Virus record (IMG/VR): IMGVR_UViG_3300025390_000008
From: an uncultured virus (IMG/VR IMGVR_UViG_3300025390_000008)
Lineage: Duplodnaviria > Heunggongvirae > Uroviricota > Caudoviricetes
Length of the DNA: 20,000 nucleotides
Strand: one strand, 5' to 3'
The first letter of the stretch is position 1. Each line of letters opens with the position of its first letter. Of this stretch, positions 11,848-18,229 are shown piece by piece. A program made the translations under genes and the position numbers. Under the pieces are notes generated by a model. That model was not told the origin of the DNA. It did no database searches and saw only the letters and a program-made list of their open reading frames with translations.

Positions 11848-12062
11848 TTGTTTCTCTCCTTGTTAATCCCTGCCATGAATCCTTTGTCCCATGCCTTCGC
11901 CCAGCAGATGCACCACAGGTCGTAGTAGCCACGGTTAAGCGGGAAACCAAAGCCTTCTTCTGAAAACATGGCCTTCACGTCTTTGCGCTTTATGAACGAC
12001 TCCCACGAATTGTCTCGTTCACGGTTCATTAGTGGCACATCATCAAACAGTCCTTCAGTCAT
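11844..12062 (-). CDS. Hypothetical protein (72 aa)
   Basis: AGGAG RBS and ATGA coupling. Confidence 0.7.
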   Translation of the reverse strand: MTEGLFDDVPLMNRERDNSWESFIKRKDVKAMFSEEGFGFPLNRGYYDLWCICWAKAWDKGFMAGINKERNK

Positions 12063-12307
12063 TCTGTTTCTCCTGAATTAAGCATTTTTAAACTTCCAAC
12101 AGTTTCGTTGCCGCAGCCGTCGCCGTCGCCGAAGCCGTTGCCGTTTCCGTAGCCGTAGCCGTAGCCGTTGCCGTCGCCGTAGCTGTAGCCGAAGCCGTAG
12201 CCGTTGCCGCCGTAGCCATCGTCGCCGTCGCCGTCGCCGTTTCCGTAGCCGTAGCCGTCGCCGTCGCCGTAGCCGTAGCCGTTGCCGTTGCCTATTGGCC
12301 TAAACAT
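12059..12307 (-). CDS. Gly-rich (G-N/Y/D-G) low-complexity protein (82 aa)
   Basis: Start MFRPIG overlaps the upstream TAA (TAATG); body is a degenerate hexamer repeat. Confidence 0.65.
   Translation of the reverse strand: MFRPIGNGNGYGYGDGDGYGYGNGDGDGDDGYGGNGYGFGYSYGDGNGYGYGYGNGNGFGDGDGCGNETVGSLKMLNSGETE
12110..12292. repeat. Degenerate hexanucleotide tandem repeat (GCCGTA/GCCGTC/GCCGTT)n
   Basis: Directly visible; encodes the Gly-X dipeptide run on the minus strand. Confidence 0.9.
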
Positions 12308-12624
12308 TAAAGCCCCCAATCATCTGCAACGGGAACGCAAAACACTTCTGCATTTTGAGGCAGGTCAACACCTTGCGGTAATGGTTTGATAATTGCTTTA
12401 TCGCTCTTTGGATTAGCAATTACGCCATCAAATCCAATTGATTCCCATCGGAATAACCAAACGGCTCGGCTCAGTTTAATGCGTCCATTTTCTCGATTTA
12501 CATCTCCTGCGAAAATCCAGCCTCGATCAACCACAATTACAGCGCGAATGCCGGTTGGTGCAGGTTGTACGGAATCGGCGCGAACATAATCGACGCCATT
12601 GATAGAGATGGTTTCATTTTTCAT
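12307..12624 (-). CDS. Phage protein, DUF6948-like (105 aa)
   Basis: MKNETISINGVDYV start with AAGGA RBS (alternative start 12654); VIVVDRGWIFAG..LSRAVWLFRW; pairing with a downstream Gly-rich ORF is a familiar phage arrangement. Confidence 0.55.
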   Translation of the reverse strand: MKNETISINGVDYVRADSVQPAPTGIRAVIVVDRGWIFAGDVNRENGRIKLSRAVWLFRWESIGFDGVIANPKSDKAIIKPLPQGVDLPQNAEVFCVPVADDWGL

Positions 12625-16170: not shown

Positions 16171-16464
16171 ATGGCACGTAGGGCGATGAGGCAGGACGAC
16201 AATCATGGGGCGGTGGTGACTGCTCTGCGGGCGATGGGTGCTACGGTGCATACGATCAGCCAAGGCGGTGGGATACCGGACTTGCTGGTGGGTTATAAGG
16301 GGAAGACGGCGCTGCTGGAAGTGAAGGACGGGGACAAGCCGCCGAGTGCGAGAAAGCTGACGGAGCCGGAGGAGAAGTTCTTTGCGAGCTGGTCAGGTGG
16401 TCCGCTGTTTATAGTGAACAGTCCTGAGGAGGCTTGTGCCATGCTGGAGCATCTTGGAGCGTAG
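16171..16464 (+). CDS. VRR-NUC domain nuclease (Holliday junction resolvase-like)
   Basis: GIPDLLVGYKG..LLEVK..LTEPEEKF motif; GAGGA RBS. Confidence 0.85.
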   Translation: MARRAMRQDDNHGAVVTALRAMGATVHTISQGGGIPDLLVGYKGKTALLEVKDGDKPPSARKLTEPEEKFFASWSGGPLFIVNSPEEACAMLEHLGA

Positions 16465-16483: not shown

Positions 16484-16549
16484 GAACCCGCTATTGCATT
16501 CATACATCCCTTGGTGGGTTCCACGGCTTCTTCGGAGGCCGTTTTTTTT
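16484..16549 (+). ncRNA. Candidate small antisense RNA against the exonuclease RBS/start
   Basis: Stem 16484-16493/16512-16521 with loop GCATTCATAC-A-TCC complementary to mRNA GGA-GUAUGAAUGC (16066-16078); ends in a terminator. Confidence 0.5.
16523..16549 (+). terminator. Rho-independent terminator
   Basis: ACGGCTTC-TTCG-GAGGCCGT (cUUCGg tetraloop) followed by a T run. Confidence 0.9.
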
Positions 16550-16550
16550 G

Positions 16551-16566
16551 CTGGTAATATTACCAC
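16551..16566. promoter_or_regulatory. Palindrome TGGTAATATTACCA, intergenic copy of a dispersed motif
   Basis: Perfect 14-bp palindrome covering the -35 position of TACAAT (16575-16580); other copies at 2273, 5229, 6904 and 18870, near-copies at 9504 and 15218. Confidence 0.7.
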
Positions 16567-16586
16567 TTGGCAGGTACAATTGTTCC

Positions 16587-16770
16587 TGCGTACCAAGACG
16601 CATGGGGATTGGCATAAATGGCTTACCCGCTGGAATAAACCGACAAATACCGGGTTAATGCCAAGTCGGGCTAACAGTCCCCAGTCGTGTTGGTAATGGG
16701 TTGGGGGCGAGTAGGCGAAAGCTGAAAGGGTCGCCGTGTGCAGATACACCCTGCGATGCACACACCAACA
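16587..16770 (+). ncRNA. Candidate structured RNA(s)
   Basis: Stems TGGGGATTG/CAGTCCCCA (16603-16611/16675-16683), TGTTGGT/ACCAACA (16688-16694/16764-16770), GGCGA/TCGCC and GTGTGCA/TGCACAC; AGTA-GGC-GAAA-GCT-GAA loop-E/GNRA hairpin. Confidence 0.5.
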
Positions 16771-16777
16771 ATATTTT

Positions 16778-16926
16778 CGGGTTGAAGCGTGATGTGGTGG
16801 CACGATTGCACATTGGGTGCAAAACTTCTTCTGTGGCTACTTGCTTGAACGGCAACTTCTAGAGTGCGTAATAAACAGCAGGGTGTGTTAGAAGTCTATC
16901 TGGTTCGACTCCAGACGACCCGACCA
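16778..16926 (+). tRNA. tRNA-like element (Pro-like acceptor) with ~75-nt variable-region insertion and non-canonical anticodon loop
   Basis: Acceptor CGGGTTG/CGACCCG + A + CCA; T-arm TCTGG-TTCGACT-CCAGA (16899-16915); D-arm CGT..TGG..ACG; anticodon-position stem TTGCA-CATTGGG-TGCAA; total 149 nt. Confidence 0.6.
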
Positions 16927-16927
16927 A

Positions 16928-17010
16928 TTTAGGGGGAAAGCGGATGCTGGTTACTTGTTCTAGACAGGGCACATAAAGAGACACTAGACGCAGCGAGTAC
17001 CCCACCTAAA
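16928..17010 (+). ncRNA. Candidate structured RNA with loop-E/sarcin-ricin-like motif
   Basis: GGGG-GAA (16932-16938) opposite AGTA-CCCC (16996-17003); inner helices CTGGT/ACTAG and CTTGT/ACAGG. Confidence 0.45.
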
Positions 17011-17018
17011 AAAAGTTG

Positions 17019-17045
17019 TTGACAACAGTTCTATCTGTGTATAAT
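17019..17045 (+). promoter_or_regulatory. Sigma70 promoter TTGACA-15 bp-TATAAT
   Basis: Both hexamers are perfect consensus but the spacer is short (15 bp); A-tract upstream; palindrome TGTTGACAACA (17017-17027) overlaps the -35. Confidence 0.65.
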
Positions 17046-17054
17046 CCAAAACAT

Positions 17055-17200
17055 CAACGGATTGGTAACCCGTTGTAGTTCGTAGAAACGCAACCGCAAA
17101 CCCATTGGTGAGCGGGCTTCGTCAAAGCTGGGATGTCCTGTCTACGCAGGCTCTTATGCGGCAACCAAGCCTAAAGCTCGTTCACCAATGGGTTTTTTGC
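17055..17200 (+). ncRNA. C4/CI-like antisense or attenuator module
   Basis: 22-bp stem 17098-17119/17174-17195 followed by Ts; internal TCTACG (17141-17146) and ACCAA (17164-17168) complement upstream CGTAGA (17081-17086) and TTGGT (17062-17066). Confidence 0.5.
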
Positions 17201-17205
17201 TTTTT

Positions 17206-17622
17206 AGCCGTATACCTTGATCTGGTAATTTAACGGGCACATGAACGGTTTGGCCCAGATCGAGAGCCATAAAAAGTATCGACGTGGCAAGCGCGGGTGG
17301 AGATAGCGCCAGATGTTGAGTAAACCGCCAGAACGGATCTAGGTCGAGAGATTGAGGTAATCCGGGGCAACGGCAACATTTGGGACAAGCTCGGTCAGTG
17401 CGCTAAGAAGGGGTCTCACAATGGGCCTAAATGTCTGACAGCTACGGCGGAACATTGAGAGATGACCGTAGCCAATGTAACGAAGGAAACGACCGACGTG
17501 ATATTGTTCTTCAGCCAACCCCGCGTCCTGTGGGCTAGGGGTGGGTTGTGTCCAGAGCTTCAGTCTTCTCCCTCCGTGATGTGGGTGTAATACCTTGTAT
17601 TTAGTGGCTCAGACCGATACTT
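17206..17622 (+). ncRNA. Candidate large pseudoknotted RNA upstream of the HNH gene
   Basis: No ORF of 60 aa or more in the track; many 6-10-bp helices, including long-range pairings 17264-17281 with 17600-17622. Confidence 0.5.
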
Positions 17623-17635
17623 ACCGGAGATGTAG

Positions 17636-18229
17636 ATGGCTAATCAGGTTGATAAGAGAGTTAAGGGTAGTGCCTTACCTTGGTTTATCACGTCGCGGGT
17701 CCGAGCTGATCGTCGGCTGGGGCTGAGTGAGATGGAGCAGGCGTGTCTAGCCCTGGAGGCTGAAGGTATGCCCTGCCCTGCCGATGTAAGCTTTGAGGCG
17801 TGGGTCAGGACCAACTTTGCCTATATCTGTGCTAGGTATATGGAGAAGTATCCAAAGCCTATTGGCAGTAAGGTAAAGCCCCGTCCGTCCAGGGCTCAGC
17901 GCAAGGCAGCTAGTCAACTTCGTCGTAACGCCAAGTCAGAAAAAGCGCCCGTTAAGCGGGTCGTCAAGGTGTGTGGTGTTGATGTGACCACCGACGCCTT
18001 TTTATCGACGTATGAATGGCGCAGGGTGCGTATGGAGGCGCTGAAGAAGTTTGGGCCTAAGTGTCAGTGCTGTGGAGCTACTCCCGCCCAAGGAGCTGTT
18101 ATGAACGTTGACCACATCAAGCCACGTAAGCTGTATCCAAACTTAGCCCTCAATGTAAACAATCTTCAGATCCTATGCCATGAGTGCAACCACGGTAAGG
18201 GCAATTGGGATCAAACCGACTGGCGGTAA
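17636..18229 (+). CDS. HNH endonuclease (197 aa) with N-terminal extension
   Basis: CQCCG..NVDHIKP..NNLQILCHECNHGK; GGAGA RBS. Confidence 0.92.
   Translation: MANQVDKRVKGSALPWFITSRVRADRRLGLSEMEQACLALEAEGMPCPADVSFEAWVRTNFAYICARYMEKYPKPIGSKVKPRPSRAQRKAASQLRRNAKSEKAPVKRVVKVCGVDVTTDAFLSTYEWRRVRMEALKKFGPKCQCCGATPAQGAVMNVDHIKPRKLYPNLALNVNNLQILCHECNHGKGNWDQTDWR

What the first reader, a model, noticed from the sequence alone, without database searches (positions are those of the whole stretch)
16778..16926. 149-nt tRNA-like RNA: intact acceptor, T-arm and CCA, altered anticodon loop, very large variable region
Seen: C1-G72 and A73 (tRNA-Pro-type identity), canonical TTCGA T-loop, encoded CCA. The loop CATTGGG has TGG out of register (TTG centred, A at position 33). 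A ~75-nt insert can close by ACTTCT/AGAAGT with inner CTTGCT/AGCAGG. The insert is too short for a group I intron and is not in the anticodon loop; there is no G3-U70 as in tmRNA. Inference: a tRNA scaffold repurposed to stabilise or display a cargo RNA, a decoy for anticodon nucleases or synthetases, or a decaying tRNA.
Basis: partly seen in the sequence, partly recalled or inferred. Interest (0 to 1): 0.72.

Follow-up and report, generated by a model that had tools for sequence, protein, structure and literature searches.

The report
New tRNA-shaped phage RNA family
A lake phage carries a 149-base RNA gene that keeps the outer shape of a transfer RNA but cannot read codons; it belongs to a small, conserved family I could not find described, which moves between unrelated phages and most likely binds a host tRNA-handling protein, which is untested.

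Summary
The feature is real and is not a decaying tRNA. Pattern scans gave 13 distinct members (56-99% identical) in uncultured phages or phage-like contigs. Of 36 consensus pairs, 16 show compensatory change and 99% of cells pair. No member has a canonical anticodon loop (0 of 13). The loop and the arm's tip vary freely, while the D arm, the anticodon-stem letters and a bulge at the arm's base are about 92% identical. Five members encode CCA; the other eight close the acceptor stem with 11-15 further base pairs. Gene neighbours differ, and a close relative lacks the whole 443-bp cassette. Rfam and ARAGORN find nothing. Best reading (about 0.4): a non-decoding tRNA mimic, cut out by host tRNA-processing enzymes, whose invariant core binds a host tRNA-handling or tRNA-attacking protein. 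The nearest precedent is T4 RNAC, of unknown role. tRNA-Pro ancestry is likely, but Pro function is not supported. Expression was not shown. This scan's earlier notes describe similar tRNA look-alikes on other DNA, but its sequence look-ups did not return this family.

The parts
16778..16926 (+). tRNA-shaped non-coding RNA gene, CCA-encoding subtype
   Evidence: model R1 score 162 bits, but this sequence is in the training set
16778..16784 (+). acceptor stem 5' strand (pairs with 16916-16922); C1-G72 in 13 of 13
   Evidence: 6 of 7 pairs compensatory
16788..16804 (+). D-like arm: 4-bp stem and loop with the invariant GG; stem register rests on invariant letters only
   Evidence: 91% identity
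16807..16821 (+). anticodon-arm-like hairpin: four invariant pairs, one covarying pair, variable 4-6-nt loop, no usable anticodon
16824..16895 (+). long variable arm: basal 6-bp helix (16824-29/16890-95), 5-nt bulge, 3 invariant pairs including two G-U, second 6-bp helix (16840-45/16878-83)
16846..16877 (+). variable tip of the arm; folds as an irregular hairpin in most members
   Evidence: 41% identity
16899..16915 (+). T arm, 5 bp with canonical loop
   Evidence: 3 of 5 pairs compensatory
16916..16926 (+). acceptor 3' strand, discriminator A73 (A in 11, G in 2 of 13) and CCA (5 of 13)
16560..17002 (+). optional 443-bp cassette of four structured RNAs (A, B, this RNA, D), absent from close relative L041/L085
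16523..16549 (+). intrinsic-terminator-like hairpin upstream of the cassette
16552..16580 (+). possible weak promoter (8 of 12 consensus letters, 17-nt spacer), read by eye; the scan reported none
   Evidence: inference
16591..16695 (+). element A: conserved outer stem with variable insert
   Evidence: z -3.6
16688..16770 (+). element B: stem-closed structured element
16931..17006 (+). element D: conserved ends with variable insert; also follows family member L469

Best explanation
A phage accessory gene for a non-decoding tRNA mimic. Step 1 (shown by covariation): it folds as a five-helix, class-II-like cloverleaf with a normal acceptor-plus-T top half and a roughly 75-nt variable arm. Step 2 (shown): it has no usable anticodon, so it does not decode. 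Step 3 (inferred): it is co-transcribed with its neighbours and released by host RNase P and 3' trimming, like phage tRNAs. In the subtype without CCA it sits on an 11-15-bp closing stem, and is either kept as a domain of the longer RNA or cut out while the stem holds the flanks together. Step 4 (inferred): the invariant core (D arm, anticodon-stem letters, bulge with tandem G-U pairs, D/T-loop elbow letters) is a binding surface for a protein. Step 5 (most speculative): that protein is a host tRNA-handling or tRNA-attacking factor, which the RNA occupies as a decoy during infection.
For: 16 of 36 pairs are compensatory. Identity is 91-93% in the D arm, anticodon stem and bulge, against 61% in the acceptor 5' strand, 60% in the loop and 41% at the tip. 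0 of 13 loops are canonical. U at -1 occurs in 11 of 13, the preference reported for bacterial RNase P (PMC4919922, passage). L468 lies 5 nt from a tRNA-Gly gene. Neighbours differ: major head protein, replication initiator, primase/helicase-polymerase, Erf/exonuclease, primase, HNH. The gene is optional: absent from L041 and from 48 of 48 related-phage contigs searched, many of them fragments. PMC12409363 raises the possibility that viral tRNAs inhibit AriB by competition (passage).
Against: No partner, host or phenotype was identified. None of three RNA libraries covered the gene (these runs held only a small share of the stretch, so this is uninformative). In the window the consensus fold is 3.2 kcal/mol above the MFE (0-7.7 across members), and the arm's basal helix has predicted pair probability 0.11. 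8 of 13 members lack CCA and have a paired leader, which should hinder RNase P (my knowledge). Part of the apparent invariance could reflect the search patterns, although the D-arm and 3' patterns share no letters and returned overlapping sets. Only 13 members are known, several closely related.
Confidence: 0.4

Rival explanations
1. Processing signal. The tRNA shape is a cut-here mark for RNase P and 3' nucleases that matures or stabilises neighbouring small RNAs or the phage mRNA, as mascRNA does for MALAT1.
For: In the window it sits between structured elements B and D, at the slot where L046 and L088 carry a true tRNA-Pro(TGG). In 6 distinct loci it precedes one conserved downstream motif. 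U at -1 occurs in 11 of 13.
Against: The downstream motif occurs without it in 4 of 10 distinct loci. L472 carries it alone between protein genes. A cut signal does not need an invariant D arm, anticodon stem and bulge.
Confidence: 0.2
2. Structural subunit of a ribonucleoprotein, or a charged non-decoding RNA. It works like the tRNA-like domain of YrlA or tmRNA, tethering a phage or host enzyme, or it is charged by a synthetase that ignores the anticodon (SerRS, LeuRS; recalled) and donates the amino acid outside translation.
For: Long variable arm and discriminators A or G only; invariant core; closed-acceptor subtype.
Against: No Rfam YrlA or tmRNA match on any member. No shared neighbouring protein gene was seen. 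The acceptor sequence varies freely, and 8 of 13 lack CCA.
Confidence: 0.15
3. Stabilising scaffold that displays a variable cargo at the arm's tip (antisense, guide or aptamer), like the neighbouring 'conserved stem plus variable insert' elements.
For: The tip is 41% identical and varies in length. Elements A, B and D have the same design.
Against: The longest exact match of the arm to its own flanks (up to 1 kb each side) is 7-10 nt, no better than to other members' flanks. No cognate loop-tip pairing (permutation P = 0.86). Host genomes could not be searched for targets.
Confidence: 0.12
4. Cis-acting leader element: a conformational switch or antiterminator for downstream phage genes.
For: Several closed-stem members follow a promoter and hairpin-terminator leader (read by eye). 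An alternative fold pairs the D loop with the bulge region and is the MFE in the window.
Against: The alternative helix is complete in only 4 of 13. Downstream genes are unrelated. One member lies among tRNA genes.
Confidence: 0.08
5. A tRNA with a removable intron in the variable region, or a decaying tRNA-Pro.
For: tRNA-Pro is enriched among the nearest ordinary tRNAs: 11 of the top 30, against 9% of 493. Other phage tRNAs with inserts exist (L168, L249).
Against: Removing the insert would still leave a non-canonical, variable loop (0 of 13 canonical). No Rfam intron match. No joints in the four runs laid, of which only the DNA run covers the gene. Compensatory changes exclude neutral decay.
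Confidence: 0.05

Closest known systems
Phage T4 RNAC (rnaC, species 1 RNA; AF158101.6 70908-71046)
   Same: About 140 nt, phage-encoded, canonical T arm, C-G first pair as I read the ends, not called by ARAGORN or Rfam tRNA. Its role is unknown (PMC3014915 and PMC9697503, passages); PMC2330249 (passage) places it in the tRNA precursor transcript.
   Different: Model R1 gives RNAC only 20 bits, within the range of ordinary tRNAs (up to 38), against 117-168 for members. RNAC's predicted expansion is a long 5' hairpin with a short arm before the T arm. Here the D and anticodon-like arms are normal in size and the variable arm is long. It works like RNAC at most; homology is not shown.
Class II tRNAs (Leu, Ser, Tyr) and tRNA-Sec; Rfam RF00005, RF01852
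   Same: Five-helix junction with a stem in the variable region; 7+5 top half.
   Different: Variable region of 76-86 nt, no U33/R37 seven-base loop, no Rfam match on the members.
Phage tRNA-Pro(UGG)
   Same: Similar D arm and TTGG remnants in several loops; C1-G72; the same genomic slot in L046 and L088; 5 of the 8 best-scoring ordinary tRNAs are Pro.
   Different: No in-register anticodon. His and Gln score nearly as well (mean 9.13 and 8.25 against 9.19), four CUA-anticodon tRNAs average higher, and the single best is a Gln.
tmRNA and YrlA (Y RNA-like, RF02553) tRNA-like domains
   Same: Non-decoding tRNA mimics with D/T-loop features and an added long helix (recalled).
   Different: No G3-U70, no conserved tag frame, a D stem is present, and there is no ARAGORN or Rfam match.

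Membership tests
decoding tRNA (RF00005) | 7-bp acceptor, 5-bp T stem, canonical T loop | tested here: met
decoding tRNA (RF00005) | 7-nt anticodon loop with U33 and purine 37 on a 5-bp stem | tested here: not met
   0 of 13
decoding tRNA (RF00005) | ARAGORN or Rfam detection | tested here: not met
tRNA-Pro | C1-G72 and A73 | tested here: met
   C1-G72 in 13 of 13, A73 in 11 of 13; also found in phage tRNAs of other isotypes, so not diagnostic
tRNA-Pro | G35-G36 anticodon in register | tested here: not met
   loops vary, for example ATTGG, ATCTA, GTTGA, GTTG
tRNA-Pro | charging by ProRS | not testable with these tools
   needs an aminoacylation assay
tmRNA | G3-U70, tag reading frame, pseudoknots | tested here: not met
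   pair 3-70 is GC or AU; no ARAGORN tmRNA; stop positions differ between members in the three frames
YrlA / bacterial Y RNA | match to RF02553 | tested here: not met
   no hit at E<=5 in the window or E<=2 on 12 member loci
group I intron-containing tRNA | catalytic core in the anticodon loop | tested here: not met
   insert of 76-86 nt lies in the variable region; no Rfam hit
archaeal-type (BHB) intron tRNA | bulge-helix-bulge motif at the junctions | not tested
   no formal motif search was run; the consensus shows one 5-nt bulge
T4 RNAC-like RNAs | sequence and structure homology to rnaC | tested here: inconclusive
   20.2 bits, E 0.0035, the level of ordinary tRNAs; different predicted fold
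T4 RNAC-like RNAs | stable, processed RNA during infection | not testable with these tools
   no RNA library covered the gene

The most novel reading that the evidence does not exclude
An undescribed class of mobile phage tRNA mimics with a sequence-fixed protein-docking core. It exists in two states: a free CCA-ended RNA, and a module on a closing stem that is cut out of, or kept within, a longer leader RNA. It blocks a host tRNA-targeting immune factor or synthetase by binding, rather than by replacing a cleaved tRNA: an RNA anti-defence inhibitor.
Probability: 0.2. Interest if true: 0.88.

Novelty: new variant of a known kind. Interest (0 to 1): 0.64.

Why it matters
T4 RNAC and RNAD are described as of unknown function (PMC3014915, PMC9697503). 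This family offers a second, alignable case of a non-decoding phage tRNA look-alike, and its alignment separates positions under sequence selection from those under pairing selection only. That gives specific mutants for pull-down, processing and anti-defence assays. The phage tRNA counter-defence described in the passages I read works mainly by supplying uncleavable decoding tRNAs (PMC12409363); a non-decoding mimic would be a different strategy. The clean split between encoded CCA and a closed acceptor stem also poses a direct test of how RNase P handles paired leaders. ARAGORN and Rfam miss these genes.

Tried and rejected
No genome was held for the window. blastn of the region or of two members against cultured phages, and of the window RNA against plasmids, gave no match or only 21-32-nt T-arm pieces. 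The genome contigs pattern gave 8 of 8 chance hits. Model R1 found no new member in 48 related-phage contigs, in 50 tRNA-rich contigs (best 38 bits), or in the non-member loci. Most pattern hits were chance and were dropped: 35 of 38, 117 of 119, 19 of 25, 47 of 59 and 37 of 44. RNA libraries X21, X23 and X24 covered only element B, in other flanks; this shows neither expression nor absence. DNA run X20 covered the gene with no joints. An antisense target in the flanks, loop-tip kissing, a tag frame and an alternative conformer as the conserved fold were tested and not supported. The host was not identified; the best cultured exonuclease match is 39%. Literature searches listed no description of this family. 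The Fremin et al. catalogue (PMC10690425) could hold it: I read passages and searched part of its supplements for six short motifs without a hit, but two zip files and one spreadsheet were not searched and three files could not be read. PMC9004378 (passages) was irrelevant. No protein-complex or fold job was run.

Full report
Setting. The window is phage DNA: PHROG hits include an endonuclease at 16171-16464, an exonuclease, an Erf-like protein and an HNH endonuclease. Its sequence is held by freshwater metagenome runs of 2017, probably one campaign. No host could be assigned. The finding lies in a non-coding stretch after a terminator-like hairpin at 16523-16549. ARAGORN finds no tRNA or tmRNA in the window, and Rfam finds nothing at these coordinates at E<=5.

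Observation. All described features are present. Folded alone, the RNA is no more stable than shuffles (z -0.25), and its MFE keeps the acceptor, T and anticodon-like stems but not the proposed insert stems. The single sequence therefore could not decide between selection and decay.

Homologues. A Pro-type long-range pattern returned 38 loci, 3 of them identical copies. Two of these belong to a different phage that shares only window 16676-17212, and a close relative (96% exonuclease identity) lacks 16560-17002 entirely. A loose 5' pattern gave one diverged member among 119 loci. An insert pattern gave 6 members of 25 loci, a D-arm pattern 12 of 59, and a 3' pattern that shares no letters with the D-arm pattern 14 of 14, including all 12 contigs of the D-arm set. 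The metagenome scan gave 7 of 44, one of them new. The bacterial and archaeal genome scan gave 0 of 8. In all there are 13 distinct sequences, 56-99% identical.

Structure. RNAalifold gives a five-helix cloverleaf. With my 36-pair version, 99.1% of cells pair and 16 pairs change on both sides: 6 of 7 in the acceptor, 3 of 5 in the T stem, 3 of 6 in each of the two insert helices, and 1 of 5 in the anticodon-like stem. The D stem and the three pairs after the bulge never vary, so they are supported only by complementarity. The D stem is shifted by one base from the register of ordinary tRNAs, which covariation cannot confirm. Against this fold, it costs 0-7.7 kcal/mol over the MFE (3.2 in the window), so it probably needs tertiary contacts or a protein (inference).

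What is conserved. Mean pairwise identity is 0.91 in the D arm, 0.93 in the anticodon-like stem, 0.92 in the bulge region and 0.90 in the T loop. It is 0.61 in the acceptor 5' strand, 0.60 in the anticodon-like loop and 0.41 at the tip. No member has a seven-base loop with U33 and purine 37 (0 of 13). The RNA cannot be a decoding tRNA, and removing the insert would not make it one.

Two subtypes. Five members encode CCA and have 0-1 leader-trailer pairs. Eight do not, and extend the acceptor stem by 11-15 pairs. Over 11 positions in those eight, 100% of cells pair and 5 pairs are compensatory. U is at -1 in 11 of 13. PMC4919922 (passages) reports a preference for U(-1) and pairing with the 3' RCCA in bacterial RNase P.

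Context. Neighbouring genes include major head proteins, replication initiators, primase/helicase with DNA polymerase, Erf with exonuclease, primase and HNH. L468 lies 5 nt upstream of a tRNA-Gly gene. A downstream motif that follows six members also occurs without the RNA in 4 of 10 distinct loci. Model R1 scores members 117-168 bits (they built it) and ordinary tRNAs up to 38, and found no further member in 48 related and 50 tRNA-rich contigs. The gene is a rare, mobile accessory unit.

Ancestry. C1-G72/A73 occurs in phage tRNAs of many isotypes: 97 of 131 matches to a pattern built to exclude most tRNA-Pro had an acceptor partner at normal tRNA distance, and by eye they carry Arg, Lys, Leu, Ile and His anticodons among others. 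Using the D and anticodon region only, Pro makes up 11 of the 30 closest among 493 tRNAs (9% overall). His and Gln are close behind, four CUA-anticodon tRNAs average higher, and the best single match is a Gln. L046 and L088 carry tRNA-Pro(TGG) in the same slot. Pro descent is likely but unproven.

Mechanism. The fold and the loss of decoding are shown; the rest is inferred. Free acceptor sequence with a fixed core argues for recognition of the core and elbow by a protein, not of the anticodon or acceptor identity. Varied contexts argue for action in trans. I favour a decoy or inhibitor of a host tRNA-handling or tRNA-attacking protein (0.4). Rivals are a processing signal (0.2), a ribonucleoprotein subunit or charged non-decoding RNA (0.15), a cargo scaffold (0.12), a cis switch (0.08), and intron or decay (0.05). 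Tests for an antisense target, loop-tip pairing and a conserved alternative fold were negative. Three RNA libraries did not cover the gene and the DNA run showed no joints, so expression is open.

Comparison with what is known. T4 RNAC is a 139-nt stable RNA in the tRNA region. PMC3014915 and PMC9697503 (passages) call its role unknown, the latter reports Northern validation, and PMC2330249 (passage) places it in the tRNA precursor. It scores 20 bits with R1 and is predicted to fold differently, so this family is of its kind but not shown to be related. Rfam gave no match on the gene in any of 12 member loci. Searches listed no description. For some searches I saw listings and abstract openings only, apart from passages of PMC12409363 and PMC4919922. 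The alignments of the Fremin catalogue could not be searched, so prior computational detection is not excluded. Earlier notes of this scan describe other oversized tRNA look-alikes, but sequence look-ups returned none for this RNA. Statements on tmRNA, YrlA, SerRS/LeuRS and RNase P leader binding that carry no call number are recalled.

Verdict. A real, selected, apparently undescribed family of non-decoding phage tRNA mimics with two end architectures. New variant of a known but unexplained kind; interest 0.64.

Noticed in passing
window 16591-16695, 16688-16770, 16931-17006; L046, L047, L057, L086-L091, L096, L462, L469: Three further families with conserved ends and freely varying inserts (7, 9 and 3 distinct pattern hits; the nine B hits mix two subtypes). 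They are stacked in changing combinations beside tRNA genes and had no Rfam match where scanned.
   Followed up: partly
window 16961-16971 and 17134-17144: The insert of element D is complementary over 11 nt (one G-U) to the loop region of the downstream hairpin-terminator; possibly an antisense RNA of the C4/CI immunity type. Not tested in other phages.
   Followed up: no
window 17014-17203; leaders in L463, L470, L471, L474, L475: A promoter-like site, then a small hairpin and a long hairpin-terminator. In several loci the first hairpin's loop is complementary to a stretch inside the terminator, with covarying letters (read by eye): an attenuator-like switch.
   Followed up: no
L168 (match at 351-391, - strand): tRNA-Arg(TCT)-like gene of about 197 nt with a roughly 120-nt insert in the D loop.
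   Followed up: no
L249 221-341 +: tRNA-like gene of 121 nt with an insert in the anticodon loop that holds T-loop-like motifs.
   Followed up: no
L005, L018, L027 701-828: About 127-nt element with a T-loop motif and an acceptor-like stem, not called by ARAGORN.
   Followed up: no
L006 1138-1255: Rfam Betaproteobacteria-1 RNA (101 bits) follows the shared cassette in the other phage.
   Followed up: no
window 16675-16776: Contigs from three RNA libraries match element B with different flanks; presence in an RNA library does not show transcription.
   Followed up: partly
window 12059-12319 -: Short ORF made largely of Gly-Tyr/Asn/Asp repeats.
   Followed up: no
window 17636-18229 +: HNH endonuclease present in the window but not in relative L040 at the same place; no link to the RNA cassette was shown.
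   Followed up: no
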